Assembly (NCBI GenBank): GCA_964610505.1
Contig: CAZSXU010000008.1
Location: 52,604 to 116,603, forward strand
Direction of reading: 5' to 3'
DNA: 64,000 nt
Source of the DNA: an uncultured bacterium
GTDB taxonomy: Bacteria > Arandabacterota > Arandabacteria > JAGLYR01
Shown: positions 28,680-50,900 of the stretch, one piece after another
Numbering within the stretch: the stretch's first letter is position 1
Layout: the number at the start of each line of letters is the position of its first letter
Program-made: the position numbers and the translations under genes
The notes under the pieces: generated by a model
What the model saw: the letters and a program-made list of their open reading frames with translations, nothing else
Databases searched by the model: none
What the model was told of the DNA's origin: nothing

Positions 28680-28685
28680 AAAGTG

Positions 28686-28721: not shown

Positions 28722-28760
28722 GGCATTGTAGAGAACCCGACATCCCGAGGAGGTTTGATC

Positions 28761-39600: not shown

Positions 39601-40770
39601 CTCATCTGGGGCGGCTTCGGCGGCGGCGCCTATTGTGGGGGCGGATCTCCCGCCTGGTCCTGGTGTACATTCACAGATAACCTGGCGGTGCGCTCGATGA
39701 CTGCGGGTGGATACGGCGGAGCCGTATACTGCCTGAGCTCATCGCCGACGTTCACAAACTGCACGTTCTTCGGAAACGAGGATGACGGGCATGCCGGCGG
39801 TCTTCGCCTGAAAGACTCCTCGCCGACGCTCGTGAATACGATCATCGCCTCCAGCGTGTCGGGGGCCGCCGTGGATTGCGCGGGGACCTCGAATCCGGTA
39901 CTCGTCTGCTGTAACATCCACGGCAACGCGGGCGGTGACTGGGTCGGGTGCATTGCCGGACAGGACTCCACCGACCACAACTTCTCAGCAGATCCCATGT
40001 TCTGCGAGGCGGACAGCGCCGACTTCACGCTTCAGGGTATTTCCCCCTGTGCATCTGACAACAACCCCTCGTGCGGACTCGTCGGAGCACAGTCCGTCGG
40101 GTGCGCGGCCGATTTCACGACGATCCAGGTGGTGGGTGATTTCAATGGGTGGGATGAAGGCACGCCCGGTATGACGGAAGAGGAGCCGCGGGTGTGGGTG
40201 GACACCCTTGCGGTCGATGCGGGATGTCACTACATGAAGTTCCGGACGGACAACGCATGGGCGTATCCGCCGGACTACGGGACATGCACAGGGCAGGATA
40301 CGACGTGCAGCGTGGGTCTTGCCGGCCAGGTGTGTCTGGTGGACCAGCCAGAGACGGCTCTCGGTCAGATCGATTTCCCCTCAACCGGCAACTACGAATT
40401 CCGGCTGGATGAAGCGGATTCGACATATACGATCACACTCGTGGCAATGACAGGTGTAGTCGAGCCCGGCCAGCGAACGCCCGTTGTCTTTTTCCTCGGG
40501 CCGGCGGTGCCGAATCCGTTCAATCCCGTGACCGAGATCAGCTACGGCATCCCGGTGAGTGACGGCGCGTCCCGCGTCCGGATGAATGTCTACGACGTCC
40601 TCGGCCGGAATGTCCGGACGCTCGTGGATGCGGACCAGGCGCCGGGAATCTACCAGGTTACCTGGGATGGACGCGATCACAACGGGGTGGCGGTCGCCAG
40701 CGGCGTGTACTTCTATCGGGTTACATGGATGGAGAAGAGCGAGACGAAGCGGATGGTGCTGCTGAAGTAG
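36652..40770 (+). CDS. Secreted protein: 4 beta-helix modules, SusE/CBM-like module, CTD
   Basis: GGAGAG SD; signal peptide; four TI(Q/A/R)A(G/A)(I/L/V)D modules; VVGDFNGW...MKFRTDNAW...DYG module; PNPFNP CTD. Confidence 0.85.
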   Translation: MTKHIVIASLFVVIVLLPSTGQAAVWEVPLECPTIQAGIDSAASGDTVRVANGIYTGDGNRDISYLGKGVTVQSASGDPTLCVINCGGYPHRGFRFVSSEGPGSVLDGFTITNADNLTGAAIRCSWASPVISNCILTGNQGNEGSAVSGLSSSFTLSGCIVTNNSCVMGPIYMDSGAPTLEHCVIAGNSATMGILFCHDSDPTITGCTLADNSATVGGAIYANGWADVTAENTIVAFSGDWPIFDCWDEGRITLSCCNVYGNDGGDYVSCVATQGSVRDNFSSDPLFCDAEGGDYRLHCASPCLNAPGCGLVGALGLGDCVRAWSVPAEVATIQAAIDLACDGDTILVADGTYTGTGNRDLDFGGKAIVVRSETGDPSTCIIDCDGSELDEHRGFLFNSGEDSTSVVMGFTIRNAYMDTYTGAAFECSNGSSPTITYCVMAENTSLRGPALNCSDSSPIVSHCTIVDNHPTFSTLYVFGSAHVRMSHCIVVYSDGMQAFRCGGEATASLTCCDVHQNGTGLSPDWGYCLEGQGDINGNMSAPPRFCDREAGDYHLNASSPCATAPCGIMGALGVGCAPRIWHVPADAPTIAAGLDSAAAGDTVEVACGTYYEHDLDFDLPICLRSETGDPECVLIDAGGLGEVMSCGYYYYADSLSSIRGITFTGGRCGAGPGLYCWSADPRIHNCVFTGNHAITDYQSGSGGAMFVSMCSPVLTDCVFHKNVAGDTTGWGGAVWVSGWAAHPLFERCTFSQNSVRGQGDGGALSVSGDAHADLFNCIIAFSKIGEAVACDSVGDVTLACCDVFGNAGGDWVGNIAGQAGTNGNFEADPIFCDTLAGDFALRNDSPCAAGHNPTCGRIGARAVGCLRPPGVLHVPSEFPTIRAAVDSSITGDSVVVACGTYYEHDIEMKSGVTVVSETGEPDCVTIDAQGLGRIIYCNDVDSTAHIVGFTITGGSESAGGGVYCSQSYVNITRCLLTANTASDLIWGGFGGGAYCGGGSPAWSWCTFTDNLAVRSMTAGGYGGAVYCLSSSPTFTNCTFFGNEDDGHAGGLRLKDSSPTLVNTIIASSVSGAAVDCAGTSNPVLVCCNIHGNAGGDWVGCIAGQDSTDHNFSADPMFCEADSADFTLQGISPCASDNNPSCGLVGAQSVGCAADFTTIQVVGDFNGWDEGTPGMTEEEPRVWVDTLAVDAGCHYMKFRTDNAWAYPPDYGTCTGQDTTCSVGLAGQVCLVDQPETALGQIDFPSTGNYEFRLDEADSTYTITLVAMTGVVEPGQRTPVVFFLGPAVPNPFNPVTEISYGIPVSDGASRVRMNVYDVLGRNVRTLVDADQAPGIYQVTWDGRDHNGVAVASGVYFYRVTWMEKSETKRMVLLK

Positions 40771-40939
40771 TCCGGCTGCGTTTTCCGCGCGGGCGTTATG
40801 CCGCAAGAAGAGTTCGGCGGTGCCCGGCCGAGAGCGCGATTGGGGATGACCATCGGCGAAGAGATTCGTCTCCTGTAGGTTCAGATTTGTCCGCCTTGTC
40901 GCCCGGGTGCCCGAGCGCTGTGTCGTCCCCTGTGCGCGG

Positions 40940-41428
40940 TCAGACTCCAAACCCGAGGTCGCTCGCCAGTCTCGTCACCTTCTCCACCACCGCAGGCACG
41001 GCCCTCTCCACCGCCGGGGTCATCTCCTCCCGGATGTTCACCGTATCAACCACTTCGACGGCAATGATGTGGATGTTCTCGGGGATCTTGAAATTCATGC
41101 GGCGGCCGAGTTCGAGGGCCTGGAAGAAGGAGACGTCGTGGACGGCCGCCCCACGGGGACTGCCGGCGTACTCCTCCGGGGAGAATTCGACGATCGTGCC
41201 CGGCTCGTGCTTCCCCGTCTTGATGGCATCGATGATGATCAGGACGTCATAGCCCGCCACGAGGTCGATAAAGGAAAGTCCCCCGGTCTGGGTGGCCACA
41301 AGCGTGACCTCGGGACGATTGATCCGCTTCTCGAGCTCATCCAGAACGACGAACCCCAGCGCGTCATCCGATACGATCGGATTGCCCAGCCCTAGAATCA
41401 GGAGTCTTCGTTTCTCGTTGCTCATCAT
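40940..41428 (-). CDS. [NiFe]-hydrogenase maturation endopeptidase (HycI/HybD family)
   Basis: ILGLGNPIVSDDALG, LIIIDAI and HDVS motifs; start (M)MSNEKRR at 41428/41425. Confidence 0.88.
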   Translation of the reverse strand: MMSNEKRRLLILGLGNPIVSDDALGFVVLDELEKRINRPEVTLVATQTGGLSFIDLVAGYDVLIIIDAIKTGKHEPGTIVEFSPEEYAGSPRGAAVHDVSFFQALELGRRMNFKIPENIHIIAVEVVDTVNIREEMTPAVERAVPAVVEKVTRLASDLGFGV

Positions 41429-41478
41429 CAAACCCCGGAAGTGTGACCACAGACTACGCAGGTTTTCGCCGATTGGGT

Positions 41479-41515
41479 AGAGAAAAGCGCTGACAGGTTT
41501 CCAGCTGCCAGCGCT
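41479..41515 (-). terminator. Rho-independent terminator-like hairpin between mvhA and the maturation protease gene
   Basis: Minus strand AGCGCTGGCAG-(CTGGAAAC)-CTGTCAGCGCT, an 11-bp stem followed by TTTCTCT. Confidence 0.55.
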
Positions 41516-41567
41516 CGTCTTGGTCTTATCGCCCTTCCGACCATTCGCCCATTCGGGAATATGGGCA

Positions 41568-43031
41568 CTAGTCTCTCCGCCACTCCCCCACCACACTCCG
41601 CTCGTGATCGTACATCTTCACGATGAGCGGCATCTCGCCCGGGAGAGCGTTGGTCGAACAGGCGAAGCACGGGTCGTAGGCCCGGAAAGCCATTTCAACC
41701 ATGTTCAAAATGCCGTCGTTGACGTTCCCGGCCTTGATCAGCTTCTGGGCGGCGCTCCGGATGTCCATGCACATGCATCCGTTGTTGAAGACCGTCGCCA
41801 CGATCAGGTTCACATCCGTCACGATCCCGTTCTTGTCCGTCTTGTAGTGATGGATCAGGGTCCCTCTCGGAGCCTCGATGATCCCTACGCCTTCCTCGGG
41901 TGTTTCGTGTGGAATGTCTCGCACGTGGGTGCTCGTGATCTCCGGGTCCCGGATGAGCCGCTGCATCGTCTCGGCCGCCTGCATGAGTTCGATGATCCGC
42001 GCCCAGTGCATGGCCAGCGTATGCCGGACCGGTTTCCCGCCCAGGGTTTTGTACATCTTCTCGTACTCTTCCTGGGCCTTCGGCGTCGCCATCCCACTGG
42101 CCACGTTCAGGCGGGCCAGTGGCGCAGCCCGCATCAGACCACTCTCCGGGCCGTCGACCAGGCCCTTCCATCCGATCTTCTTCAGGAACGGGAACTTGAG
42201 ATACGTCCACGGCTCCACGTGCTCGCCGATGTGCTCGAGATACTCGTTCTCTTTGAACCGGAGGAACTCGTTTCCGTCCGGATCCGTGACTTTGACCGTC
42301 CCATCGTAGAAGTTCGGATGATCGTTCTCATCCACCAGGCCGATGTCATACGTCCGGAGCGCATAAACATCGCTCAGGATCAGATCGACGTAGCTCTGGT
42401 TCTTCAGCACGATGTCTTCGAACGCCTTGAAGGTGAACGAGCAGAAGTCCACGATGGAATCCGTCCACGGCTCGATCGTCTCCCGCTCTTCTTCCTTGAG
42501 CGGCCGGCTCATCCCTCCGGGCAGTGCACAAACGGGGTGCGTGGCCTTCCCGCCCAACGTCTCCTGAATCTTCTGCGCGTAGGCCCGGTGCTTGATGACT
42601 TCGGCCCCGATCTCCAGGCCGACTGTCTCGATCACGCCGAGAATGTTCCGCTTCGCCGGATCGGCGTCGGGACCCACGATGAAGTCGGGGGCGCCCAGAG
42701 CGTAGAAATGCGCGATGTGCGAATGCGTCATCTGAGCGTTGTAGAACAGCTCCCTCAGCTTTCTCGCCGCCGACGGGATCTTCGCCTTGAATACTGCATC
42801 TACGGCCTTACCCGAGGCCATGTGGTGTGCCTCGGGTCAGACACCGCAGAGTCGGGTGGTGATCCTGGGCAGCTCCTCCACGGGGCGTCCGATGCAGAAC
42901 TGCTCAAATCCCCGGAGCTCGGGAATCTGGAAATACGCATTCGTGGCGTTGCCTTCCTCATCGAGGAAGATCTCAATCTTCCCATGGCCCTCGAGCCGGG
43001 TAATGGGATCGATCGTGATTCGCTTGCTCAT
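41568..43031 (-). CDS. mvhA: Group 3c (Mvh-type) [NiFe]-hydrogenase large subunit, 487 aa, with an in-frame TGA (codon 65) read as probable selenocysteine
   Basis: Track ORFs 42837-43031 and 41568-42821 are in the same frame and join across TGA 42837-42839: RLEGH...RLCGV-TGA-PEAHHMASGKAVD...EAPRGTLIHHY...RAYDPCFACSTN. The start overlaps the mvhG stop (ATGA). Confidence 0.88.
42802..42821 (-). promoter_or_regulatory. Candidate bacterial SECIS element of mvhA
   Basis: AUGGCCU-(CGGGUA)-AGGCCGU: 7-bp stem, apical loop 22 nt after the UGA, G at loop position 2. Confidence 0.55.
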
Positions 43032-44029
43032 GATACCTTCGCTCCTTCAGCTTTGGCTTCTTCCTCGCTTCCCTGCTTATACTTCGGACTCAGAAGACCG
43101 TCGGAGGCTCCGAACCGATAGAAAGTGCCGGCGGGGTCCGCCAGCTCGGCCAAGAGATCCCTGGCCTGATCTTCATCGTCGAATTCCACGATACTCGCCA
43201 GAGCGGAGAGCATCTTCGCTCCCTGATCCTTCACGCCTTCGGCCGGTCCGAAGCAACCCCGGCAGGGCATGTTGGCGTTGATGCAGGCGTTACCGCACCC
43301 GCTCCGCGTGGCGGGCCCCATGCACACCAGGCCCTGTTCCAGGAAACAGGTCTTGCCGTCGGGAATCACTTCGAAGCGCCGCTTGAACGTGGAGATCTTC
43401 GGATGGTCCGATTTCTCCAGCGGGCACTCATCACAGAGGGTCTTCTTCCCCGCAATCGTGCTCCCCGGAGGAGGCAGGTTCCCGGAGACGATGGCCTCCA
43501 CCGCCGTCATGAGAAGATCCGAGGGCGGCGGGCAGCCGGGAATGATGTACTCCACCGGCACGATGTCCGACAACTTGTAGACGTGATCGTAGAACCGGGG
43601 CAGCGTCAGATTTCCTTCCTCGACCTCGGTCGAGGTCTGGGGCCGCACGCCTTCGGGATTCACCGTCGAGTCGGTGGTCTCGTAGGCCTTCTTGAGAATT
43701 GCTTCTCGGGTCGTGAAATTGGCCAGACTCGGGATGCCCCCGAAAGCCGAGCAAGAGCCGTAGGCTACCATGACCTTGGTTTTCCTGCGGAGAAGCCGGG
43801 CCATGTGTTCGTTCTCGGAATTCCGAATCGCCCCGTTGAAGAGCGTTACATCCAGGAACCCGTCGTCCATCGCTTCGACATCCTTGACCTTGAAGTCCGT
43901 TGCGCAGGGCCAGAAATGTATGTCCGCGGCCTCGACGATCTCCAGAACCCTCTCGTGCGTATCAAGAATTGAGACGTCGCACCCGCCACATGTCGCGGCC
44001 CAGTAGACTCCGAGTTTGAGCTTTGCCAA
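43028..44029 (-). CDS. mvhG: Mvh hydrogenase small (gamma) subunit
   Basis: WAATCGGCD, AYGSCSAFGGIP, IPGCPP, LCDECP, CFLEQGLVCMGPATRSGC and PCRGCFGP motifs. Confidence 0.92.
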   Translation of the reverse strand: MAKLKLGVYWAATCGGCDVSILDTHERVLEIVEAADIHFWPCATDFKVKDVEAMDDGFLDVTLFNGAIRNSENEHMARLLRRKTKVMVAYGSCSAFGGIPSLANFTTREAILKKAYETTDSTVNPEGVRPQTSTEVEEGNLTLPRFYDHVYKLSDIVPVEYIIPGCPPPSDLLMTAVEAIVSGNLPPPGSTIAGKKTLCDECPLEKSDHPKISTFKRRFEVIPDGKTCFLEQGLVCMGPATRSGCGNACINANMPCRGCFGPAEGVKDQGAKMLSALASIVEFDDEDQARDLLAELADPAGTFYRFGASDGLLSPKYKQGSEEEAKAEGAKVS

Positions 44030-44032
44030 GAC

Positions 44033-44449
44033 TTACACCTCCTCTGCGACAGCCTGACGGGCCGGTCCCAGTTCCTTGAGATCATCGGTGAACTCATTCA
44101 TGACGTTCACCAGCTTACGGCCTTCGGCTGCGGATATCCACTCGAGCCGAAGCCGCTTGGGATCGACACCGAACTCCGGAAGAATTCGCTTGAGCATCTC
44201 GATCCGCTTGTACGTCAGTTGATTCCCCGTTACGTAATGGCAATCCCCCGGATGGCACCCTCCGATGAGCACCCCATCCGCTCCCTTGCTGAACGCGTCC
44301 AGAATATGCTGCGGATCCACACGGCTGGAGCACATGGCTTTGATCACCACGCCGTTAGGGACGTATTTCATGCGGCTCGTCCCCGCGAGGTCGGCGCCGG
44401 TGTACGTGCACCATTTGCAGTAGAAACAGATTATCTTCGGCTCATACAT
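44033..44449 (-). CDS. mvhD: MvhD [2Fe-2S] subunit
   Basis: FYCKWCTYTGADLAG, MCSSRVDP, GCHPGDCHY and RLRLEWISAAEG motifs; all sites are Cys codons. Confidence 0.95.
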   Translation of the reverse strand: MYEPKIICFYCKWCTYTGADLAGTSRMKYVPNGVVIKAMCSSRVDPQHILDAFSKGADGVLIGGCHPGDCHYVTGNQLTYKRIEMLKRILPEFGVDPKRLRLEWISAAEGRKLVNVMNEFTDDLKELGPARQAVAEEV

Positions 44450-46406
44450 GCGCTTCCTCCAACGCAGCAGTGATCATCTCGAAGTATTGGGTATCCGTGT
44501 AGTTTCGCTGCTGTGCGGCTCCGGCTGCACAAGCAGCGATACAGGCACCACAGCCTTCGCAGAGTACCTCGTTGACGGTCACGATCTTCTTCTCTTCGTC
44601 ATATGTGCGGGCCTCGTACGGACAGGCCGGCACACAGATCTTGCACGCGCAGCACTGTTCCTCATCGACCACGGCCACGATGGGCTCGAGCTCCAGGCAG
44701 TCGCCGCTGAAGAGACCCACGACCTTGGCGGCCGCGCCACTCGCCTGTGCCACGGCTTCGGGAATGTCCTTGGGCGCATGGGCGGCTCCGGCGAGATAGA
44801 ACCCGCTCGTGTTGCTCTCCACGGGTCTCAGCTTGGGATGTGCTTCGCTGAACCAGTCGTCCTCATCCACCTGGATCTTCAGCTTCTGCGCCAGGGCTTT
44901 CGTTCCGGGTTGCGCCTTGATGGCCGTGGCCAGGACCACGAGATCTGCGGCAACGGCCACCTTCTTGCCGATGGTCGTATCCTCGCCCCAGACCATAACC
45001 TTGTCGCCGTCCTGGAAGACGCGCGACACCTTGCCACGCATGTAAGTGATGTGCTCCTCCTCGATGGCCTGCTGCACGAATTCCTCGTACTTCTTGCCGG
45101 CCGAACGAACATCGATGTAGAAAACGTAGGTATTGCCGTCGTGGACCGCGTGTTTGTACAGCTTGGCGTGCTTCGCCGTGTACATGCAGCAGATCTTCGA
45201 GCAGTACGGATAGGCGTTCTCCGGATCCCGGGAGCCGGCACATTGAACAAACACGATGTCCTTGGGCTCCTGCCCGTCGGAGGGTCTTCGAATCTTGCCT
45301 TCCGTGGGCCCCGACGCCGACAGCATCCGCTCGAACTGGAGCCCATCGATCACGTCGGGAATGGTCCCCTGACCGTATTCCCCGAAATGTTCTTTCTCGA
45401 GAGTTTCATAGCCGGTGGCGATCACGATGGCGCCGATCTCCTCCTCGATGATCTCATCCTGCTGATCGAAATCGATGGCCCCCACCGGGCAATGCTTCTC
45501 GCACGCCTTGCATTTCTCCTTCTGGAAGTAGATGCACGCCTCACGATCGATCACCGGTTTGTTGGGAACCGCCTGGGGGAAGGGTACGTAGATCGCGGGC
45601 CGAGTGGCGAGCCCTCGTTCGAACTCGCTGGGCGTCTTCTTGCTCGGGCATTTCTCGATGCACATCCCGCAACCCGTGCATTTCTCCCGATCCACGTAGG
45701 CCGCCTTCTGGCGGATCTTGACGTTGAAGTTCCCGACATATCCAGAGACCTCGTCAACCTCCGCGTACGTGCGCAGTTGGATTCGGGGATGCTTGCTGAC
45801 TTCCACCATCTTGGGCGTCAGAATGCACTGAGAACAGTCCAGCGTGGGAAAGGTCTCGGACAGCTGTGCCATGTGCCCACCGATGGACGGGTCCCGCTCC
45901 ACCAGAATCACCTCGTAGCCGCTGTTGGCGATATCGAGTGCCGACTGGATCCCGGCGATTCCGCCGCCGATCACGAGCGCCCGCCGGGTTACATCCACTC
46001 GGATGGCGTCCAGGGCCTCGTCGCCCACCGACTTCTCCACCATGGTCCGGATGATTCGAAGCGCTTTCCGGGTCGCCAGTTCCTTGTCTTCGTGGACCCA
46101 GCTACACTGCTCGCGAATGTTGGCGATCTCCACCTTGTACCCGTTGAGACCTGCCCGCTCGGCCGCCTTACGGAAGGTCACTTCGTGCAGCGTGGGTGAG
46201 CACGCGGCTACGACGATCCCCGTCAGTTTCTTGTCCTCGATGGCATCTTGGATCCGGTTCTGTCCCGGGTCCGAGCACATGTACTTGTAGTTCTCGGTGT
46301 GGACCACGGCCGGGTGTTTGGAAATGGCTTCCGTAACCCCTTCCACATCCACCGTGTCGGCGATGTTCGATCCACACCAGCAAACAAAGACGCCAATTCG
46401 TTCCAT
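44442..46406 (-). CDS. hdrA: Heterodisulfide reductase subunit A (FAD, Fe-S)
   Basis: IGVFVCWCG, YMCS, ACSP, NIREQCSW, VIGGGIAG, FPTLDCSQC, FERM (Glu), CCMYTAK (Lys) and a ferredoxin insert; SD AAGGGAG before ATG 46406. Confidence 0.95.
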   Translation of the reverse strand: MERIGVFVCWCGSNIADTVDVEGVTEAISKHPAVVHTENYKYMCSDPGQNRIQDAIEDKKLTGIVVAACSPTLHEVTFRKAAERAGLNGYKVEIANIREQCSWVHEDKELATRKALRIIRTMVEKSVGDEALDAIRVDVTRRALVIGGGIAGIQSALDIANSGYEVILVERDPSIGGHMAQLSETFPTLDCSQCILTPKMVEVSKHPRIQLRTYAEVDEVSGYVGNFNVKIRQKAAYVDREKCTGCGMCIEKCPSKKTPSEFERGLATRPAIYVPFPQAVPNKPVIDREACIYFQKEKCKACEKHCPVGAIDFDQQDEIIEEEIGAIVIATGYETLEKEHFGEYGQGTIPDVIDGLQFERMLSASGPTEGKIRRPSDGQEPKDIVFVQCAGSRDPENAYPYCSKICCMYTAKHAKLYKHAVHDGNTYVFYIDVRSAGKKYEEFVQQAIEEEHITYMRGKVSRVFQDGDKVMVWGEDTTIGKKVAVAADLVVLATAIKAQPGTKALAQKLKIQVDEDDWFSEAHPKLRPVESNTSGFYLAGAAHAPKDIPEAVAQASGAAAKVVGLFSGDCLELEPIVAVVDEEQCCACKICVPACPYEARTYDEEKKIVTVNEVLCEGCGACIAACAAGAAQQRNYTDTQYFEMITAALEEAHV

Positions 46407-46538
46407 CTCAGACTCCCTTAGCTGCACAGTTGCTTCCGCTGTGGCATAGAACCGATTCCGGGAATAGACGACGAGCCCCTCCGGGCAAGGTTCTGCCCTG
46501 CCTTTCCTCTCTCGCCCATTCGCCCATCCACCCTTTCG

Positions 46539-47420
46539 CTATCCGATGAGTCCTTTCTCCCTCAGCATGGGCCGGGGATCCACATGATGATCGTCGAAAT
46601 GACAGACCTCCTCGCCCAGACCCAGCGCAAGGGCCATCAGTTGGGTGAAATAGAGAATCGGGATTTCGGGTATCGAGTTGCCTCGCGCCGAGAACCGTTT
46701 CTGGCTCTCATCGAGATTGAAGTGGCACAGGGGACAGCTGGTGACGATCCCATCCGCTCCCCGCCGGTGCGAGGACTCGCAAATCTTATACGCCAGGTCG
46801 TCGACAATCTCCGGCTCGCCCACCGTGTGGTAGGAGCCACAGCACTCCGTCGCGTACGGTTCATAGGGTGTGTCGGCCCCCAGACTTCTGAGAAGATCGT
46901 CCAGAACCGTCGGCGACTCCACGCTGTCGATCGCCACTTCCTTGGGTCTCGTCAACAGACAGCCGTAGTAGGAAACCAGCTTCACCCCATCCAGCGATGT
47001 ATCCACGTGACCTCGTATGCCCTCAAAACCGATGTCGTCCCGGAGAATCTCGAGCAGGTGAAGGACCTTCACCCTCCCCCGATAGTCCTCCTCACGATCC
47101 ATGAAGCTGTTGATCTTCTCCAGACGATCCGGATCGTTCTGCACAAGCTGGTTGCTCATCCTGAGCGTGTGAAAGCACATGGTGCAGAGGGTCACCAGCC
47201 GGGAGCTCCCCATCTCCTGCGTCCGAACCAGCACGCGAATGGGGCCCACGTGATGCATCAGGTTGTCGGAGGAGAGACCGGCCACCGTACCGCAGCAATT
47301 CCAGCGCGGCAGTTCCGCCAGATTCACGTCCAGCTTCTTCATGGCCGCACGGGCGGACTCGTCGAGATTCAGAGCCGTTGTGGTCAACGTGCAGCCTGGG
47401 TAGTAGGGAATGTCTCTCAT
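46539..47420 (-). CDS. hdrB: Heterodisulfide reductase subunit B (two CCG domains)
   Basis: YYPGC...NCCG...LCTMC and YYGC...ECCG...TSCPLC...ILYFTQL; true start MRDIPYYPGC at 47420. Confidence 0.9.
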   Translation of the reverse strand: MRDIPYYPGCTLTTTALNLDESARAAMKKLDVNLAELPRWNCCGTVAGLSSDNLMHHVGPIRVLVRTQEMGSSRLVTLCTMCFHTLRMSNQLVQNDPDRLEKINSFMDREEDYRGRVKVLHLLEILRDDIGFEGIRGHVDTSLDGVKLVSYYGCLLTRPKEVAIDSVESPTVLDDLLRSLGADTPYEPYATECCGSYHTVGEPEIVDDLAYKICESSHRRGADGIVTSCPLCHFNLDESQKRFSARGNSIPEIPILYFTQLMALALGLGEEVCHFDDHHVDPRPMLREKGLIG

Positions 47421-47423
47421 TGC

Positions 47424-47506
47424 GCACCCTGCTCTGTTTCTTCCGAGCAGCCTGCTCCAGTTCTTCGGAGCACCCTGCTCCGGTTCCTCGGAGCACCCTG
47501 CTCCGG
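47424..47506. repeat. 3.6 copies of a 23-bp tandem repeat; each unit can form a small hairpin
   Basis: GCACCCTGCTCTGTTTCTTCCGA / GCAGCCTGCTCCAGTTCTTCGGA / GCACCCTGCTCCGGTTCCTCGGA / GCACCCTGCTCCGG, between hdrC and hdrB. Confidence 0.9.
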
Positions 47507-47509
47507 CAG

Positions 47510-47959
47510 TTAGGAGGAGAACTTGCGGAAGCAGCTGATCACCGCAATCTGGGGCACCCGCCTCAAGGTCTCCTCGGGAATCCTCGCCGGATCCTGTTGG
47601 TCGAGTCCTTTTCTCAGATGAATCTGGCGCACCGCCTCGGCGACTTTTGCCAGGTCGATTCCTCGCGGACATCGGGCCAGGCAGGCAAAACACGACGCAC
47701 AGGTCCAGACCCCTCTGGACTCGGCAATCTCGGAAAAACAACCGATCTGAAGCAGCTTCATCCACTGCGCGGGCGTGTAGTCCATGTAGTCGGACGTCGG
47801 ACACCCGGCCGCGCAGCAACCACACTGAATGCACCGAAATACGTCGATTCCGCTGATCTCCCGAATTTTCTCAAGGAGCCCGGCGTGGCGCGATCGGGTG
47901 TGTGGATGGATGGTATCGTCGCTCTCCACGGACCGTAGCGTGAGGGGAAATCGACCCAT
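47510..47959 (-). CDS. hdrC: Heterodisulfide reductase subunit C (2x[4Fe-4S])
   Basis: CIQCGCCAAGCP and WTCASCFACLARCPRGI; SD GGGAGAG upstream. Confidence 0.88.
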   Translation of the reverse strand: MGRFPLTLRSVESDDTIHPHTRSRHAGLLEKIREISGIDVFRCIQCGCCAAGCPTSDYMDYTPAQWMKLLQIGCFSEIAESRGVWTCASCFACLARCPRGIDLAKVAEAVRQIHLRKGLDQQDPARIPEETLRRVPQIAVISCFRKFSS

Positions 47960-48023
47960 CGTACTCTCCCGTCAGAGATTGGGATTCAGTTCCGGAATCC
48001 CGGTGGATAACCGTCGCACGGTT

Positions 48024-49715
48024 CTACGAGTATGTTTCCTTCAACCCCACGGTGCCACAGTAGTCCTTCGACAGCTGCCGCTTTCGAACATCGGGGTTCG
48101 AGTAGTCCGGCAACAGCATCGGGGACACACGGTCCGTGCGCACTCCCTCGCGGTCAATCTCTTCGTTGTACTTCTTCACGTGTTCCAGGCTGAGTTTCCC
48201 GTCCTTGGCCTCGGACGTGGCATAGCGGGCAGCGTGTTTGCCCGCCCTCTTGCCAAAGACGCACACGTCCAGAAGCGAATTCCCCATGAGACGATTCTCC
48301 CCATGGATGCCGCCCGCTACCTCCCCGGCCGCGTAGAACCCGGGAACGCTCGTCTGACAGTACGCGTCGATGTTCAACCCGCCGTTCTGGTAGTGGAGCG
48401 TTGGATACACGAGCATCGGCTCCTTCGAGATATCGATGTCGTGCCTTCTGTACACCTTGAGTTTGCCCAGGAATTCGCGCTCCACGGTTCCTTCACCCAG
48501 CAGATCGTCGATCATCGGCGAATCCACCCAGACACCGGAACGTCCTCCGGGGACGGGAACTCCGTTGCCCCTCTCCGCGCATTCGCGAATGAACGCGGCG
48601 GCCTCTACGTCTCGAGGCTCCCGCTCAAACACAAATTGCTCACCGTGGACGTTGACGATGTTGGCGCCGATCCCCCGGAATTTCTCCGTCAACAGAAGTC
48701 CCTCCAGTTGTTCCGGGAACACCGCGCCCGTGGGGTGAAACTGAACGGTATGAAGGAATGAGAGCTCCACGCCCGCCCGGTACCCCATCACCAGACCGTC
48801 GCCGGTGGCACCGTAGTGATTCGTGGTCATGAAGTTCTGAACGTGGAGTCTCCCGGATCCGCCCGTGGCCATGACTACCGCTTTGGCCTTGATTACCTGG
48901 TATTCCTCGGTCTCGTGATTGAACACGACAGCGCCGGCGCACTCGCCGTGTTCGCTGAGCACGAGCTCCACCGCCGAGGAGAATTCGACGATTCGAATGT
49001 CGTCCGGATAATTCTTCACTTCATCCCGGAGGGTCCGCATGATCTCCGCGCCCGTGATGTCAGAAGCGAAGTGCATCCGCTTGCGGCTCGTGCCCCCCCC
49101 ATGCATACTCTGGAGCCGCCCGTCGGGAAACTTGGTGAACATGCAGCCGAGGTTCTCCAGCCATGCCATGGTCTCCGGGGCATCCATCACCAGGGCTTCG
49201 ACGAGTTCGGGAACGTTCTCGAAATGTCCTCCGCCGATGACGTCCAGGTAGTGGTAGTAGGGCGAGTCCTTTTCTCCCTTTGAGGCGGCCTGGATTCCGC
49301 CCTCGGCCATCATCGTATTCGCATCGCCCATGCGCAGCTTCGTGGTGATGATGACCCTGGCCCCCTCCTTGCGGGCCATGAGCGCCGCAGAGGCCCCCGC
49401 TCCTCCGCCACCGACCACGAGAACGTCCGTCTCATAGGCGGGATTCATGAGATCCACGAGATCGGGGCGGACCCTGCTTCTGGCTTCCAGAAGGTCGACA
49501 ATCTCGGGTGAGATCTCGTACCCCTTATTCACTCCAATCCGGATCGGCCTCCTGGAACCAGCCTTGTGGTCGGGATGGTGCGCCCGTAGAAGCTCGGTTC
49601 GCTCCTCCAGCGACATCTCGGGGAACTCGTACCCCTCCCTCTTCCGCCGGACTCTCTCGGGCCGGGTGGCTTCGACCTTCTTGATCAGCTCCTTCAGTTC
49701 CGGTGTGTACGGCAT
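48024..49715 (-). CDS. Soluble fumarate reductase/succinate dehydrogenase-family flavoprotein (TfrA/SdhA-like)
   Basis: VLVVGGGGAG, AEGGIQAA, GHGRLH-equivalent GSGRLH, QFHPTG, LLTE, PRD, PTLHYQNGG and HGENRLMGNSL motifs; all dicarboxylate-site residues recognisable. Confidence 0.85.
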   Translation of the reverse strand: MPYTPELKELIKKVEATRPERVRRKREGYEFPEMSLEERTELLRAHHPDHKAGSRRPIRIGVNKGYEISPEIVDLLEARSRVRPDLVDLMNPAYETDVLVVGGGGAGASAALMARKEGARVIITTKLRMGDANTMMAEGGIQAASKGEKDSPYYHYLDVIGGGHFENVPELVEALVMDAPETMAWLENLGCMFTKFPDGRLQSMHGGGTSRKRMHFASDITGAEIMRTLRDEVKNYPDDIRIVEFSSAVELVLSEHGECAGAVVFNHETEEYQVIKAKAVVMATGGSGRLHVQNFMTTNHYGATGDGLVMGYRAGVELSFLHTVQFHPTGAVFPEQLEGLLLTEKFRGIGANIVNVHGEQFVFEREPRDVEAAAFIRECAERGNGVPVPGGRSGVWVDSPMIDDLLGEGTVEREFLGKLKVYRRHDIDISKEPMLVYPTLHYQNGGLNIDAYCQTSVPGFYAAGEVAGGIHGENRLMGNSLLDVCVFGKRAGKHAARYATSEAKDGKLSLEHVKKYNEEIDREGVRTDRVSPMLLPDYSNPDVRKRQLSKDYCGTVGLKETYS

Positions 49716-50453
49716 TTAGCTGACTCCTAGGAGGTGTTCCTTGCTCTGGGGTTCCCACATCTCATCGGCCATGTTGGGTTCCACTTCCCGTTCCACATAC
49801 AGCTTCTTCAGCTGCCCTCGGTCCATTTCCATGAGTTGCATGATCGGACCCGTATACTGTCCGTTCGTCACAGCCTCGACCTGCTTGTGAAGATGTTTCG
49901 CCCGAGGAGCCAGAAAGCGACCGTAGAGCCTCCTTGCCAGAATGGCGGCGTTGTAGTGCGAAATCTCGGCCGGGCACCGCGACGTACACAACCCGCACAT
50001 GATGCAGTCGAACGAGAGCTCGGCCGCCTTCTTGATATCTCCCCGCATGATTGCGTTGACGTAGTCCATGACCTCGATCTCCATCGGGCAGGACTTCGTG
50101 CACGTGTTGCAGCTCACGCACTTGAAGAGCTCGGGATAAAGGGCCTGGAAAGTCGCCACCGAGGCCTGCACCGTCTTCTTGTCAAAGACCGACCTCTTGG
50201 CCGGGAAGAACGGCAGCTGGGCCAGGTACATGTCGGGCTGAACCAGCGTCTGACACGCCAGTCCGATCTCGATCTTGTGGCTGTTCGGAAAACGGTACAC
50301 GGTACCGCACGCGCCGCAGATTCCGCCCCTGCAGCCGCATCCTCTCACCAGCTGGAATCCCGCGTACTCCATTGCCTTGAGGATGGTGAGCGTATCCGGC
50401 ACTTCGTACGTCGTGCCCATGATGTGGATGGGTATCAACCGTGCCTGTTCCAT
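49716..50453 (-). CDS. SdhB/TfrB-like iron-sulfur protein ([2Fe-2S] plus 2x[4Fe-4S])
   Basis: CRGGICGAC...LAC, CVSCNTCTKSCP and CIMCGLCTSRCP; SD GGGAG; first gene of the operon. Confidence 0.85.
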   Translation of the reverse strand: MEQARLIPIHIMGTTYEVPDTLTILKAMEYAGFQLVRGCGCRGGICGACGTVYRFPNSHKIEIGLACQTLVQPDMYLAQLPFFPAKRSVFDKKTVQASVATFQALYPELFKCVSCNTCTKSCPMEIEVMDYVNAIMRGDIKKAAELSFDCIMCGLCTSRCPAEISHYNAAILARRLYGRFLAPRAKHLHKQVEAVTNGQYTGPIMQLMEMDRGQLKKLYVEREVEPNMADEMWEPQSKEHLLGVS

Positions 50454-50830
50454 CGCTACTCCCGTGGGTTTTCAGGTTCCCTGTGTCTCTCGGACCGAAT
50501 CAAACAAAAGCATGAGGACAGGTTTTCCACCCGGGAAACCCCATCCGTATTCCAGGAACTCGAAGTTATCGGATTCGACGGCGACCGATCGAAAAGCAGC
50601 CGGATTGGGGGGGGGCACCCTCTGCGGTGAATCCCCACGCCGAGCGCGGCGCCGAGGATCTGAACAATAGCGGGTGCTCTGGATCGAGCAAGTTTCCCGA
50701 GGTGCCCAAGCGTGACTTCGCGAGGGGACAAACGTCCCGGTCGAGAAATCCGGGCAGGTTTCGTTCTGACAAGGATGCGGGTGCATGGAGTCCAATCGTC
50801 CGAACTAGGCTGAGTGATTCTGCGATCCCT

Positions 50831-50864: not shown

Positions 50865-50871
50865 ACCGATT

Positions 50872-50900
50872 ATTCTACCACTAAGGTCTGAGCATGTCTA
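50872..50900 (-). promoter_or_regulatory. Sigma70-type promoter of the fumarate-reductase-like/hdr/mvh operon
   Basis: TAGACA-N17-TAGAAT with a TGn extension, in an AT-rich patch. Confidence 0.65.

What the first reader, a model, noticed from the sequence alone, without database searches (positions are those of the whole stretch)
40940..50453. Bacterial operon joining a soluble fumarate-reductase-like pair to a complete HdrABC-MvhAGD bifurcating complex
Seen: gene order sdhB-like, sdhA-like, hdrC, hdrB, hdrA, mvhD, mvhG, mvhA, maturase, with no membrane-anchor (SdhC/D) gene. The Fe-S subunit has two full 4-Cys ferredoxin motifs instead of a [3Fe-4S] site. HdrA keeps the Glu (FERM) and Lys (CCMYTAK) linked to bifurcation. 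Known: methanogen MvhAGD-HdrABC bifurcates H2 electrons to ferredoxin and CoM-S-S-CoB; methanogen TfrAB reduces fumarate with CoM/CoB via a fused CCG domain; type-E Sdh uses a CCG subunit. Inference: an H2-driven bifurcating system with fumarate (or a related acceptor) as the high-potential sink, either directly through HdrBC or through an unknown non-methanogenic thiol/disulfide pair.
Basis: partly seen in the sequence, partly recalled or inferred. Interest (0 to 1): 0.75.

Follow-up and report, generated by a model that had tools for sequence, protein, structure and literature searches.

The report
Hydrogen-driven soluble fumarate reductase operon
A bacterial nine-gene operon links a membrane-free fumarate reductase to a hydrogen-oxidising, electron-splitting Hdr/Mvh machine, so fumarate is a candidate for the long-missing acceptor of such bacterial complexes; similar clusters occur in other phyla, but none has been tested biochemically.

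Summary
Nine co-oriented minus-strand genes (50453-40940) encode a [2Fe-2S]+2x[4Fe-4S] protein, a TfrA/FrdA-like flavoprotein, HdrC, HdrB, HdrA, MvhD, MvhG, MvhA and a HycI protease. None has a predicted transmembrane segment.

It recurs in independent relatives, so it is probably selenocysteine.

The flavoprotein keeps the dicarboxylate-binding residues I could check but has Asn where FAD is normally attached covalently. Its family is found in at least 596 species genomes. Among 80 fetched loci, 51 have HdrC-HdrB next to the FeS-flavoprotein pair. In 31 an HdrA or HdrL module is also present, often interleaved, and 12 carry the Mvh hydrogenase. Fumarase flanks it in 12 loci and succinyl-CoA synthetase in 5.

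So HdrCB belongs with the fumarate reductase, and HdrA-Mvh is an optional input module.

Best reading (confidence about 0.5): an H2-dependent bifurcating complex that reduces ferredoxin and, by direct wiring, fumarate.

An NADH-linked (Flx-Hdr + TfrAB) analogue was proposed in 2019. I therefore call this a new, untested variant of a known kind.

The parts
50872..50900 (-). Sigma-70-like promoter candidate (TAGACA-17-TAGAAT, TG extended), about 420 nt upstream of the first start codon
   Evidence: It is the only minus-strand match in the region. The number of matches is no higher than in shuffled sequence, so only its position is suggestive.
50516..50532 (-). Terminator-like hairpin plus T-run in the long leader, about 60 nt before the FeS start codon (possible attenuator)
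   Evidence: No Rfam family matches the leader.
49716..50453 (-). FeS subunit (FrdB/TfrB-N-like): one plant-type [2Fe-2S] motif and two 4-Cys [4Fe-4S] motifs
   Evidence: Fer2 24.8 bits; Fer4_9 41.9 bits; best NCBIfam match is TfrB, but weak; all 13 Cys invariant in 31 homologs. AF2 pLDDT 75; the fold search shows only the generic pattern of an N-terminal 2Fe-2S ferredoxin followed by a 4Fe-4S domain.
48024..49715 (-). Fumarate reductase-type flavoprotein (TfrA/FrdA-like). Asn replaces the His that carries covalent FAD. It has a family-specific extension of about 95 aa at the N-terminus and a short divergent C-terminus.
   Evidence: PF00890 at 1.4e-77; top PDB hits are SdhA 7d6v, E. coli SdhA and FrdA; FHPTG, TE, HY and NRL are aligned. 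TfrA model 345 bits, matching positions 5-426 of 546. H327, T343, E344, R368, H441 and R475 are invariant; the nearest outside clusters are TfrA-type.
47510..47959 (-). HdrC-like subunit, 2x[4Fe-4S]; short form ending in a conserved ...SC(F/L)RK.. tail
47444..47504 (-). Three tandem copies (23-nt period) of a palindromic hairpin, GGAGCAGGGTGCTCC, in the hdrC-hdrB spacer
   Evidence: 3 matches against 0.28 expected. They occur only here in the window.
46539..47420 (-). HdrB-like subunit with two complete CCG motifs (10 Cys), the ligand pattern of two non-cubane [4Fe-4S] clusters
   Evidence: CCG domain at 7.4e-17. HdrB model 147 bits, SdhE of MFR 128 bits; aligned with methanogen HdrB, all CCG Cys conserved.
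44442..46427 (-). HdrA, the bifurcating-type flavoprotein (FAD plus multiple [4Fe-4S]); start is GTG 46427 or ATG 46406
   Evidence: 672 bits, E 5e-201, full-length alignment to methanogen HdrA (8rvu, 5odc). HdrA2 model 782 bits.
44033..44449 (-). MvhD ([2Fe-2S] connector between hydrogenase and HdrA)
   Evidence: FlpD at 1.5e-51..
43028..44029 (-). MvhG, [NiFe] hydrogenase small subunit; no Tat signal
   Evidence: Oxidored_q6. VhuG model 231 bits.
41568..43031 (-). MvhA, group-3c-type [NiFe] hydrogenase large subunit, 487 residues if the in-frame TGA is read through
   Evidence: VhuA model 429 bits. The C-terminal motif is DPCFAC (Cys, not Sec).
42837..42839 (-). In-frame TGA at mvhA codon 65 (RLCGV-U-PEAHH), probably selenocysteine. 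An 11-bp hairpin follows directly (42837-42810).
   Evidence: same split in the closest relative. L086-L088. L091; 39 of 120 closest clusters, the window's own included, are 414-431 aa and lack the N-terminal domain. Cys codon in 13 other loci; hairpin present but not discriminating.
40940..41428 (-). HycI/HybD-type hydrogenase maturation endopeptidase
   Evidence: HycI at 2.2e-16. TIGR00072 at 111 bits. ATG at 41428.
40814..40831 (-). Terminator-like hairpin downstream of the last gene
   Evidence: consensus match only.

Best explanation
The operon encodes one soluble cytoplasmic complex: an H2:fumarate,ferredoxin oxidoreductase working by flavin-based electron bifurcation.

Proposed path:
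1. MvhA, a [NiFe] hydrogenase probably carrying Sec, oxidises H2.
2. Electrons pass through the MvhG clusters and the MvhD [2Fe-2S] to the FAD of HdrA.
3. At HdrA each electron pair is split. One electron goes uphill to ferredoxin through the HdrA ferredoxin domains.
4. The other goes downhill through the two [4Fe-4S] of HdrC, probably the two non-cubane clusters of HdrB, and the three clusters of the FeS subunit. It ends on the non-covalently bound FAD of the flavoprotein, which reduces fumarate to succinate.

Overall: 2 H2 + Fd(ox) + fumarate -> Fd(red, 2e-) + succinate + 2 H+. Fumarate (E0' about +30 mV) plays the role of CoM-S-S-CoB in methanogens.

What is shown: gene content, cofactor motifs, retained catalytic residues, and conserved, interleaved synteny across phyla with fumarase and sucCD linkage. 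What is inferred: that the proteins form a single complex, the order of the clusters, bifurcation itself, and that no thiol cofactor is needed.

The reduced ferredoxin could feed 2-oxoacid synthases or an Rnf/Ech-type pump. That would be a 'soluble fumarate respiration', analogous to caffeate respiration in Acetobacterium.
For: 1. Parts list and motifs. HdrA aligns full length with structurally characterised bifurcating HdrA (672 bits) and keeps the FAD-site Glu and Lys. HdrB keeps all 10 CCG cysteines. HdrC, MvhD, MvhG, MvhA and HycI are all present.

2. Substrate. The flavoprotein scores best against the TfrA model (345 bits). The nearest outside clusters score highest on the TfrA model, and one is a true TfrA equivalog at 43% identity. 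FHPTG His, Thr-Glu, the HY His and the NRL Arg align with E. coli SdhA, and these plus the PRDV Arg are invariant in the family. Asn replaces the covalent-FAD His; by established knowledge that favours fumarate reduction over succinate oxidation.

3. Context. In L001 (Edwardsbacteria) malic enzyme, fumarase AB and sucCD precede hdrC-hdrB-x-FeS-flavo-hdrA-mvhDGA-hycI. In Dehalococcoidia the order is fumA-hdrC-hdrB-FeS-flavo-fumB. Of 80 loci, 12 carry fumarase and 5 carry sucCD.

4. Coupling. The order hdrC-hdrB-hdrA-mvhD-FeS-flavo-mvhG-mvhA-hycI is interleaved in KSB1, Aegiribacteria and Fermentibacteria. Aminicenantes has hdrC-hdrB-hdrA-mvhD-FeS-flavo with mvhA about 8 kb upstream. The closest relative has exactly the window's order.

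5. There is only one HdrBC set, no gene for a thiol carrier in the operon, and no membrane subunit.

6. HdrC is part of the core even where HdrA is absent. That fits an electron-entry connector.
Against: - No biochemical data exist for any member of this family.
- 21 of the 80 loci have hdrC-hdrB-FeS-flavo with no HdrA or hydrogenase within about 10 kb where the contig extends that far (15 of the 21 have at least 3.9 kb on both sides). The flanks inspected in four such loci hold no consistent donor gene. The core can therefore work, or at least be encoded, without HdrA-Mvh and may have its own donor.
- HdrB keeps every ligand of the thiol/disulfide-active clusters. That would be unnecessary for a pure electron wire.
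- The HdrB-like subunit scores almost as well against SdhE, the quinone-side subunit of type-E enzymes (128 vs 147 bits).
- Co-transcription was not tested. Hairpins lie between hdrC and hdrB and between mvhA and hycI.
- If the TGA in mvhA were a true stop, the hydrogenase would be dead in this organism.
- Complex formation could not be modelled because no multimer prediction was available.
Confidence: 0.5

Rival explanations
1. Thiol-mediated coupling. Mvh-HdrABC reduces an unknown bacterial disulfide (a low-molecular-weight thiol pair or a DsrC-like protein). The fumarate reductase part re-oxidises that thiol, as methanogen TfrAB does with CoM-SH and CoB-SH.
For: HdrB retains all ten CCG cysteines of the disulfide-active site. 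TfrA is the nearest characterised relative of the flavoprotein. Core-only loci (21 of 80) could be autonomous thiol:fumarate reductases. Papers on Endoriftia and S. fumaroxidans have suggested a DsrC-like mediator.
Against: The operon has only one HdrBC, so the same site would both make and consume the disulfide. No carrier or thiol-biosynthesis gene lies in the operon or among the window genes scanned. CoB is not known from bacteria (established knowledge). HdrC in the core has no role in a TfrB-like thiol-to-FAD chain unless it is simply a spacer.
Confidence: 0.15
2. Two independent enzymes that are merely co-located. One is a four-subunit HdrCB-FrdBA fumarate reductase or succinate dehydrogenase of the type-E kind, peripherally membrane-associated or using another donor. 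The other is an HdrA-MvhDGA hydrogenase module serving a different acceptor.
For: The four-gene core stands alone in many genomes. The HdrB-like protein scores 128 bits against SdhE of methylmenaquinol:fumarate reductase. In Desulfomonilaceae the same FeS-flavoprotein pair sits with NapC/NirT cytochrome, NrfD and a molybdopterin enzyme, showing that the head is modular. MvhA-HdrA-MvhD clusters without Frd genes exist.
Against: Gene orders are interleaved in several phyla. HdrA-Mvh alone would lack any high-potential acceptor module. No hydrophobic segment or Tat signal is present. The non-covalent FAD signature argues against a succinate dehydrogenase. The same nine-gene order is kept in the closest relative.
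Confidence: 0.2
3. Same complex, opposite physiological direction. Succinate oxidation is pulled by confurcation with reduced ferredoxin to make H2, as a solution to the energetically difficult succinate step in syntrophs.
For: Family members occur in Syntrophaceae, Syntrophorhabdus and Syntrophobacterales MAGs. Hdr-type bifurcating systems are reversible in principle (established knowledge).
Against: Asn replaces the covalent-FAD His, and covalent FAD is needed for efficient succinate oxidation (plus established knowledge). The contexts with malic enzyme, fumarase and sucCD read as a reductive branch. The window's organism resembles an FCB-group bacterium rich in T9SS-type secreted proteins, not a known syntroph.
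Confidence: 0.06
4. The hydrogenase is a pseudogene here (the TGA is a real stop), so the cluster no longer uses H2.
For: An in-frame TGA sits at a catalytic Cys codon. No Sec machinery genes are visible in the scanned part of the 64-kb window. The downstream hairpin is not specific to the TGA forms.
Against: The same codon is TGA in at least five independent sequences at about 55-87% identity, all with intact downstream ORFs. 39 of the 120 closest protein clusters, the window's own included, are 414-431 aa and lack the N-terminal domain; the three inspected start at the Met just after the TGA. Every other homolog has Cys there. This is the classical Cys/Sec signature.
Confidence: 0.05
5. The flavoprotein is an L-aspartate oxidase or acts on another substrate such as APS, urocanate or an enoate.
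For: NadB models also score well (290 bits) and NadB shares the same catalytic residues. A NAD synthase gene lies divergently upstream.
Against: The NadB score is below its cut-off (452) and below the TfrA score. The flavoprotein has an obligatory, translationally abutting FeS partner in 73 of 80 loci. Fumarase and sucCD linkage point to fumarate. AprA matches only at E about 1e-4. The nadE neighbour is not conserved in the closest relative.
Confidence: 0.03

Closest known systems
MvhAGD-HdrABC of hydrogenotrophic methanogens (H2:CoM-S-S-CoB,ferredoxin oxidoreductase; PDB 5ODC, 8RVU)
   Same: HdrA aligns full length (672 bits) and keeps the FAD-site Glu and Lys. HdrB keeps both CCG motifs. HdrC, MvhD, MvhG, a group-3c-type MvhA and a maturation protease are all present.
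   Different: This is a bacterial operon. HdrB and HdrC are far below the equivalog cut-offs (147/345 and 70/350 bits), and HdrC is about 40 aa shorter. A TfrA-like flavoprotein and a 3-cluster FeS protein are added. The probable terminal acceptor is fumarate rather than CoM-S-S-CoB. MvhA carries a probable Sec in the N-terminal nickel motif.
Thiol:fumarate reductase TfrAB of Methanothermobacter (EC 1.3.4.1; Heim et al. 1998, recalled from memory)
   Same: It is the nearest characterised flavoprotein family (best NCBIfam model; a true TfrA equivalog is 43% identical over the core). Both are soluble, with [2Fe-2S] + 2x[4Fe-4S] + CCG chemistry on the partner side. Non-covalent FAD in TfrA is recalled from memory, not checked here.
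   Different: In TfrB the FeS and CCG parts are fused in one protein and there is no HdrC. Here they are three genes (FeS, HdrC, HdrB). The flavoprotein has an N-terminal extension of about 95 aa and lacks a match to the last 120 positions of the TfrA model. The donor is probably HdrA/H2, not CoM-SH plus CoB-SH.
FlxABCD-HdrABC + TfrAB-like + KorABCD cluster of tubeworm symbionts and Thioflavicoccus (hypothesis of Rubin-Blum et al. 2019, PMC6315080; Mitchell et al. 2024, PMC11636981)
   Same: The concept is the same: a bacterial HdrA-based bifurcating module genetically interspersed with a membrane-free AB-type fumarate reductase, proposed to send electrons to fumarate and ferredoxin.
   Different: The donor module there is NADH (Flx), not H2 (Mvh). 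It is embedded in an rTCA gene cluster, and tfrAB expression was not co-regulated with the rest. Homology of that TfrAB to the present family was not tested here. Neither system has been characterised biochemically.
Type-E succinate:quinone oxidoreductase / methylmenaquinol:fumarate reductase SdhABE (Wolinella, Campylobacter, Sulfolobales)
   Same: An FeS subunit with a second [4Fe-4S] in place of [3Fe-4S], and a CCG-domain subunit. The window's HdrB-like protein scores 128 bits on the SdhE model.
   Different: There is no covalent-FAD His, no Tat signal and no quinone-linked context. An extra HdrC is present. All scores are far below the family cut-offs (SdhA 210/1100, SdhB 27/600, SdhE 128/500).
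Soluble NADH-dependent fumarate reductase FrdABCDE of Hydrogenobacter thermophilus (Miura et al. 2008; paper not held, subunit list from PMC10052474 and PMC13147460)
   Same: A multi-subunit, soluble, membrane-free fumarate reductase of the reductive TCA cycle, with FrdA/FrdB plus extra Fe-S subunits. It sets a precedent for dispersed genes forming one complex.
   Different: It has an NADH-binding FrdD (Nox/GltD-like) and no hydrogenase or HdrA. I could not test whether its FrdC and FrdE are homologous to the HdrB/HdrC-like subunits here.
Cytoplasmic 'FrdABEF' (Sfum_4092-4095) of Syntrophobacter fumaroxidans (PMC5947623)
   Same: A four-subunit fumarate reductase without a transmembrane subunit. 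It is more abundant during growth with fumarate, and its donor is unknown, with DsrC or Hdr suggested.
   Different: Sequence identity with the present core was not tested. It is not linked to Mvh.

Membership tests
MvhAGD-HdrABC (EC 1.8.98.5) | Bifurcating HdrA: FAD, multiple [4Fe-4S], FAD-site Lys and Glu | tested here: met
   full-length alignment at 672 bits; 'FERM' Glu and 'CCMYTAK' Lys align with 'LERM' and 'CCMYIMK'. HdrA2 model 782 bits, below the 1100 cut-off, which expects a fused MvhD.
MvhAGD-HdrABC (EC 1.8.98.5) | HdrB with two CCG motifs and HdrC with two [4Fe-4S], at equivalog level | tested here: inconclusive
   The motifs are all present. Scores are far below the curated cut-offs: HdrB 147 vs 345, HdrC 70 vs 350.
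MvhAGD-HdrABC (EC 1.8.98.5) | MvhA/G/D group-3c [NiFe] hydrogenase attached through MvhD | tested here: met
   VhuA 429, VhuG 231 and VhuD 116 bits, FlpD 1.5e-51. mvhD overlaps hdrA by 8 nt.
MvhAGD-HdrABC (EC 1.8.98.5) | Substrate CoM-S-S-CoB; organism makes CoM and CoB | not testable with these tools
   Only 64 kb of the genome is available, and no CoM/CoB genes are among the genes scanned. CoB is not known in bacteria (established knowledge).
Thiol:fumarate reductase TfrAB (EC 1.3.4.1) | TfrA equivalog flavoprotein | tested here: not met
   the best model is TfrA, but 345 bits against a cut-off of 718, and only positions 5-426 of 546 match; a genuine TfrA equivalog (P0291, 765 bits) is 43% identical.
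Thiol:fumarate reductase TfrAB (EC 1.3.4.1) | TfrB: a single protein fusing [2Fe-2S] + 2x[4Fe-4S] with two CCG domains | tested here: not met
   The function is split over three genes (FeS 245 aa, HdrC 149 aa, HdrB 293 aa). The TfrB model scores 44, 40 and 33 bits against a cut-off of 385.
Sdh/Frd superfamily flavoprotein acting on fumarate/succinate | Dicarboxylate-binding and catalytic residues (His, Thr-Glu, Arg, His, Arg) | tested here: met
   alignments to E. coli SdhA. H327, T343, E344, R368, H441 and R475 are invariant in 16 family members.
Membrane-bound Sdh/Frd (types A-D) | Covalent 8-alpha-N3-histidyl FAD and SdhC/D-type membrane anchor | tested here: not met
   Asn lies at the His position ('DANTMMAEGGI' vs 'RSHTVSAQGGI'). 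No hydrophobic subunit is in the operon, and no anchor-like gene is among the window genes scanned.
Type-E SQR / MFR (SdhABE) | SdhE CCG subunit, SdhB with extra [4Fe-4S], SdhA with Tat signal (MFR) | tested here: inconclusive
   The extra [4Fe-4S] is met. The SdhE model scores 128 vs 500, SdhA 210 vs 1100 and SdhB 27 vs 600. No Tat-like N-terminus is present.
L-aspartate oxidase NadB | Stand-alone flavoprotein reaching the NadB equivalog score, no FeS partner | tested here: not met
   TIGR00551 scores 290 vs 452.75. An FeS partner is adjacent in 73 of 80 loci.
[NiFeSe] hydrogenase | Sec in the C-terminal DPUxxC motif (terminal Ni ligand) | tested here: not met
   The C-terminal motif is DPCFAC. 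The TGA is in the N-terminal R-x-C-G-x-[U] motif instead. The 2026 selenoproteome review lists only UxxC for MvhA/VhuU.
Flx-Hdr/TfrAB rTCA complex (hypothetical, Rubin-Blum 2019) | FlxABCD NADH module and korABCD interspersed with hdrABC and tfrAB | tested here: not met
   No flx or kor genes are in the operon or among the window genes scanned. Mvh is the donor module.

The most novel reading that the evidence does not exclude
This is the founding example of a widespread, uncharacterised class of flavin-based electron-bifurcating enzymes. In it a membrane-free fumarate reductase head (FeS plus flavoprotein plus its own HdrCB) is hard-wired to HdrA, so fumarate is the physiological high-potential acceptor of bacterial 'Mvh-Hdr' and 'HdrL-Hdr' complexes. 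That would answer what these complexes reduce outside methanogens and define a soluble, ferredoxin-generating form of H2/fumarate respiration. In addition, its hydrogenase would use selenocysteine at a Ni-Fe bridging position, not the terminal position of all described [NiFeSe] enzymes.
Probability: 0.4. Interest if true: 0.8.

Novelty: new variant of a known kind. Interest (0 to 1): 0.62.

Why it matters
HdrABC-MvhADG-type gene sets are common in non-methanogenic bacteria. Their high-potential substrate has stayed unknown, with DsrC and unknown 'bacterial heterodisulfides' usually invoked.

This operon and its relatives give a concrete, testable candidate: fumarate, delivered to a dedicated soluble reductase head. 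The relatives include at least 596 species genomes that carry the flavoprotein, annotated as 'FAD-binding protein' or generic SdhA/FrdA where a name is given at all.

If correct, it adds a new acceptor class to flavin-based electron bifurcation. It would also explain 'incomplete' AB-type fumarate reductases in reductive TCA and fermentative pathways of many candidate phyla. And it shows that one catalytic head is combined with different donor modules: H2/Mvh, HdrL, or membrane cytochrome/NrfD.

The probable Sec at a bridging Ni-Fe ligand is of separate interest for hydrogenase chemistry.

Tried and rejected
- Rfam searches of the whole window (gathering threshold) and of the leader (E-value mode) found only a tRNA and a chance snoRNA match. 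No SECIS family or riboswitch was found.
- The hairpin directly 3' of the TGA looked like a SECIS element. Cys-encoding homologs fold about as well, because the conserved PEAHHMAS codons create the hairpin, so it is not used as evidence.
- The AF2 model of the flavoprotein was poor (pLDDT 58). Its fold matches (SdhA/FrdA first, then NadB) add little.
- The AF2 model of the FeS subunit (pLDDT 75) matched only generic proteins with a 2Fe-2S ferredoxin followed by a 4Fe-4S domain (NuoG, StnC) at TM 0.22-0.25. It did not single out SdhB.
- A database protein named 'F420-non-reducing hydrogenase subunit A, selenocysteine-containing' (P0398) has TGT at the codon and no in-frame TGA. It says nothing about where Sec sits.
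- Miura et al. 2008 is not in the library. My recollection that the Hydrogenobacter FrdC and FrdE are Hdr-like could not be checked and is not used.
- DNA of the closest relative's contig was unavailable.
- Phrase searches for an 'Hdr-Frd' or 'bifurcating fumarate reductase' found nothing relevant.
- Flanks of four core-only loci were scanned for a conserved NAD(P)H or other donor subunit. None was found.
- AprA, urocanate reductase and NadB assignments were rejected on scores and context.

Full report
**1. What is in the sequence**

The region 50453-40940 carries nine co-oriented minus-strand genes. Pfam and NCBIfam identify them as follows:

| Gene | Coordinates | Size | Identification |
|---|---|---|---|
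| FeS protein | 50453-49716 | 245 aa | Fer2 plus dicluster ferredoxin domains |
| Flavoprotein | 49715-48024 | 563 aa | FAD_binding_2, 1.4e-77 |
| HdrC | 47959-47510 | 149 aa | 2x[4Fe-4S] |
| HdrB | 47420-46539 | 293 aa | two CCG domains |
| HdrA | 46427-44442 | 661 aa | bifurcating-type flavoprotein |
| MvhD | 44449-44033 | 138 aa | FlpD, 1.5e-51 |
| MvhG | 44029-43028 | 333 aa | [NiFe] small subunit |
| MvhA | 43031-41568 | 487 residues with read-through | [NiFe] large subunit |
| HycI-type protease | about 41428-40940 | about 162 aa | maturation endopeptidase |

The genes abut or overlap, with gaps of 0, 64, 89, about 111, -8, 3, -4 and about 140 nt. No room is left for another gene.

A promoter-like site lies at 50900-50872 and a terminator-like hairpin at 40831-40814. 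These are consensus matches only.

None of the nine proteins has a hydrophobic stretch of membrane-helix quality. The scanned neighbours are housekeeping genes (NAD synthase, FolP, FtsH, TilS) or large secreted proteins with T9SS-type C-terminal domains. None looks like SdhC/D. Four large plus-strand ORFs (19728-36587) and two of about 200-280 aa were not scanned.

**2.

- The FeS protein has C-x4-C-x2-C...C followed by two C-x2-C-x2-C-x3-CP motifs. All 13 cysteines are invariant in 31 homologs. This means [2Fe-2S] plus two [4Fe-4S], with no [3Fe-4S] site.
- HdrA aligns over its whole length with structurally solved methanogen HdrA (672 bits). Its 'FERM' and 'CCMYTAK' match 'LERM' and 'CCMYIMK'. 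By my count, and from my memory of Wagner et al. 2017, these are the Glu and Lys at the bifurcating FAD.
- HdrB keeps all ten CCG cysteines.
- HdrC is complete compared with its family.

Two corrections are needed. First, mvhA has an in-frame TGA at codon 65 (42839-42837), in RLCGV-TGA-PEAHH. Second, 'SdhB-like' is justified only by cluster composition. Neither PDB sequence search nor a fold search with an AF2 model (pLDDT 75) singles out SdhB.

**3. The flavoprotein**

Its best PDB matches are SdhA and FrdA. NadB follows, and AprA matches only marginally.

The alignments show the FHPTG histidine, Thr-Glu, the HY histidine and the NRL arginine. The PRDV arginine is also present. All of these are invariant in a 16-member family alignment. 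The histidine that carries covalent FAD in Sdh/Frd is Asn here, as expected for a low-potential, fumarate-reducing flavin.

The best NCBIfam model is TfrA of methanogen thiol:fumarate reductase. It scores 345 bits against a cut-off of 718, and only model positions 5-426 of 546 match.

A search of 1.84 billion cluster representatives shows a tight family. Its nearest full-length outside clusters are 38-43% identical over the core and, with one exception, score highest on the TfrA model; one of them is a true TfrA equivalog.

So this is a distinct sister family of TfrA. It has its own conserved N-terminal extension of about 95 residues and a short C-terminus. It is not NadB: the score is below cut-off and the protein has an obligatory FeS partner.

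**4. Distribution and context**

The family is very large. All of the 8000 scored candidates in the protein collection pass E <= 1e-30. The top 120 are at least 70% identical across Margulisiibacteriota, Eisenbacteria, Edwardsbacteria, TA06 and Thermodesulfobacteriota.

I annotated the 80 fetched loci with profiles of the window's proteins:

| Feature next to the flavoprotein | Loci (of 80) |
|---|---|
| FeS gene directly adjacent | 73 |
| hdrC-hdrB adjacent to the pair | 51 |
| hdrC-hdrB-FeS-flavoprotein with nothing else recognisable | 21 |
| HdrA or HdrL module also present | 31 |
| MvhA within 10 kb | 12 |
| Fumarase genes | 12 |
| sucCD | 5 |
| FeS-flavoprotein pair only | 13 |

In Dehalococcoidia the fumarase genes bracket the core as fumA-hdrC-hdrB-FeS-flavo-fumB.

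In an Edwardsbacteria contig, malic enzyme, fumarase AB and sucCD precede hdrC-hdrB-(471-aa unknown)-FeS-flavo-hdrA-mvhD-mvhG-mvhA-hycI.

In KSB1, Aegiribacteria and Fermentibacteria the order is hdrC-hdrB-hdrA-mvhD-FeS-flavo-mvhG-mvhA-hycI. The two 'halves' are therefore interleaved. In Aminicenantes the order is hdrC-hdrB-hdrA-mvhD-FeS-flavo, with mvhA about 8 kb upstream.

The closest relative (85% identical flavoprotein) has exactly the window's order.

In Thermodesulfobacteriota the partner set is hdrA-hdrA-hdrC-hdrB-hdrL-mvhD-(382-aa FeS protein).

In a Desulfomonilaceae genome the same pair sits among NapC/NirT cytochrome, NrfD, a four-cluster protein and a molybdopterin enzyme.

The flavoprotein is much better conserved (59-76%) than HdrB and HdrC (30-60%).

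**5. Interpretation**

The FeS-flavoprotein pair is a modular, membrane-free fumarate reductase head. In most lineages it travels with its own HdrC and HdrB. HdrA-MvhDGA is one of several electron-input modules.

For the window, the most economical model is a single soluble complex in which H2 is oxidised by Mvh and the electron pair is bifurcated at HdrA-FAD. One branch reduces ferredoxin. The other runs through HdrC, probably HdrB, and the FeS subunit to the flavoprotein FAD, which reduces fumarate.

Points in favour of direct wiring:

- There is only one HdrBC.
- The operon has no gene for a thiol carrier.
- HdrC, the connector to HdrA in methanogens, is present even in the core.
- The gene order is interleaved.

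Points against:

- The HdrB disulfide site is fully conserved.
- Core-only loci have no conserved neighbouring donor gene.
- HdrB scores nearly as well against SdhE as against HdrB.

I put direct bifurcation to fumarate at about 0.5. The other readings are a thiol shuttle (0.15), two independent enzymes (0.2), reverse operation (0.06), a dead hydrogenase (0.05) and another substrate (0.03).

**6. Comparison with the literature**

- Rubin-Blum et al. 2019 described tfrAB-like genes interspersed with flxABCD-hdrABC and korABCD in the rTCA clusters of tubeworm symbionts and Thioflavicoccus. They proposed one complex feeding fumarate reductase and OGOR.
- Mitchell et al. 2024 and a 2026 survey repeat this as an untested hypothesis.
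- A 2024 preprint notes STRING links between HdrA and 'succinate dehydrogenase' in Zixibacteria, Syntrophaceae and Firmicutes, without a mechanism.
- S. fumaroxidans has a cytoplasmic 'FrdABEF' without a membrane subunit. It is more abundant during growth on fumarate, and its donor is unknown.
- Hydrogenobacter has a purified five-subunit soluble NADH-dependent enzyme.

I found no paper describing the Mvh (H2)-linked arrangement or any biochemical test of an Hdr-linked fumarate reductase. I therefore class this as a new variant of a known, and so far only hypothesised, kind.

**7. The TGA in mvhA**

Thirteen homologous loci have TGC or TGT at this codon. The closest relative's gene is split into 64-aa and 414-aa products at the same point.

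A metagenome pattern scan found three more contigs with TGA there and intact downstream frames. One of them is only moderately similar to the window's MvhA (about 55-60% by my estimate) and sits in an mvhG-mvhA-hycI-hdrA-mvhD cluster without Frd genes.

Of the 120 closest MvhA clusters, 39 (the window's own included) are 414-431 aa and lack the N-terminal HoxH domain. The three whose sequences I inspected begin at the Met just after this codon. One of the 39 was verified at the DNA level.

This is the classical Cys/Sec signature. From established structural knowledge (D. gigas Cys68, D. vulgaris MF Cys84), the position is the second Cys of R-x-C-G-x-C, a Ni-Fe bridging ligand. Described [NiFeSe] enzymes instead carry Sec at the terminal ligand in the C-terminal DPUxxC. 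A 2026 review lists only UxxC for MvhA/VhuU.

The hairpin directly after the UGA is real (-19 kcal/mol), but Cys forms fold equally well, so it is not diagnostic. No Sec machinery lies among the scanned genes of the 64 kb.

**8. Limits**

- There is no biochemistry for any family member.
- No multimer modelling was available.
- Only 64 kb of the genome was in hand.
- Co-transcription was not tested.
- Homology to the Endoriftia, Syntrophobacter and Hydrogenobacter enzymes was not tested.
- The flavoprotein model had low confidence.

Noticed in passing
window 42837-42839 (minus strand; mvhA codon 65); also L086:2661-2692, L087, L088, L091:7983-7985: An in-frame TGA replaces the second Cys of the N-terminal R-x-C-G-x-C nickel motif of MvhA. 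It recurs in independent, diverged sequences, and 39 of the 120 closest clusters (the window's own included) are N-terminally truncated. This is probably selenocysteine at a Ni-Fe bridging position, unlike the C-terminal DPUxxC of described [NiFeSe] hydrogenases. The window's C-terminal motif is DPCFAC.
   Followed up: partly
window 47444-47504 (minus strand), hdrC-hdrB spacer: Three tandem 23-nt repeats, each holding the palindrome GGAGCAGGGTGCTCC (6-bp stem). They occur nowhere else in the window (3 matches against 0.28 expected). The spacer is only about 30 nt in the closest relative. They may act as an mRNA stability or translational-coupling element.
   Followed up: partly
window 50454-50900 and 41489-41505 (minus strand): A leader of about 420 nt runs from the promoter-like site to the first start codon. 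It ends in a terminator-like hairpin (50532-50516). A second terminator-like hairpin sits between mvhA and hycI (41505-41489). Both share the core GGAAA(A)CCTGTC. No Rfam family matches.
   Followed up: partly
window 936-13747 (minus) and 36652-40770 (plus): Four paralogous genes of about 1040-1130 aa carry many Reg_prop propeller repeats and a C-terminal FlgD_ig/CHU_C (T9SS-type) domain. A 1372-aa gene has beta-helix, DUF5123 and FlgD_ig domains. Giant ORFs of 1443, 1489 and 2634 aa (19728-36587) were not scanned. This suggests an FCB-group or candidate-phylum organism with a large secreted-protein arsenal.
   Followed up: partly
L001:7841-9256: In Edwardsbacteria a 471-aa protein with no Pfam domain is inserted between hdrB and the FeS gene of the otherwise equivalent cluster. 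It may be an extra subunit and is absent from the window.
   Followed up: no
L054:6594-16367: In a Desulfomonilaceae genome the same FeS-flavoprotein pair is surrounded by a NapC/NirT-type multihaem cytochrome, a cytochrome c7-like protein, a Fer4_11 protein, NrfD and a molybdopterin oxidoreductase. This looks like a membrane/quinone-linked version of the same reductase head.
   Followed up: partly
L003:4169-9011 and similar loci L008-L014, L020, L024, L066: Thermodesulfobacteriota and 'delta' MAGs link the pair to hdrA-hdrA-hdrC-hdrB-hdrL(1010 aa)-mvhD plus a 382-aa FeS protein, often followed by sucCD. Their HdrB and HdrC are only about 32% identical to the window's, so a different Hdr lineage has been recruited to the same head.
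   Followed up: partly
family-wide: The flavoprotein is unusually conserved (59-76% identity) across very distant phyla, whereas its HdrB and HdrC partners are 30-60% identical. This points to very strong constraint or to frequent horizontal transfer of the FeS-flavoprotein head.
   Followed up: no
L089:6001-7467 (Paradesulfitobacterium, P0398): A public record names this MvhA 'selenocysteine-containing', yet the gene has no in-frame TGA and TGT at the motif codon. This is apparently a naming artefact.
   Followed up: yes
window 51328-52296 (plus strand): A NAD synthase (NadE) gene is divergently transcribed from the operon. It could mislead towards a NadB (L-aspartate oxidase) reading of the flavoprotein, but the neighbour is not conserved in the closest relative.
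   Followed up: yes
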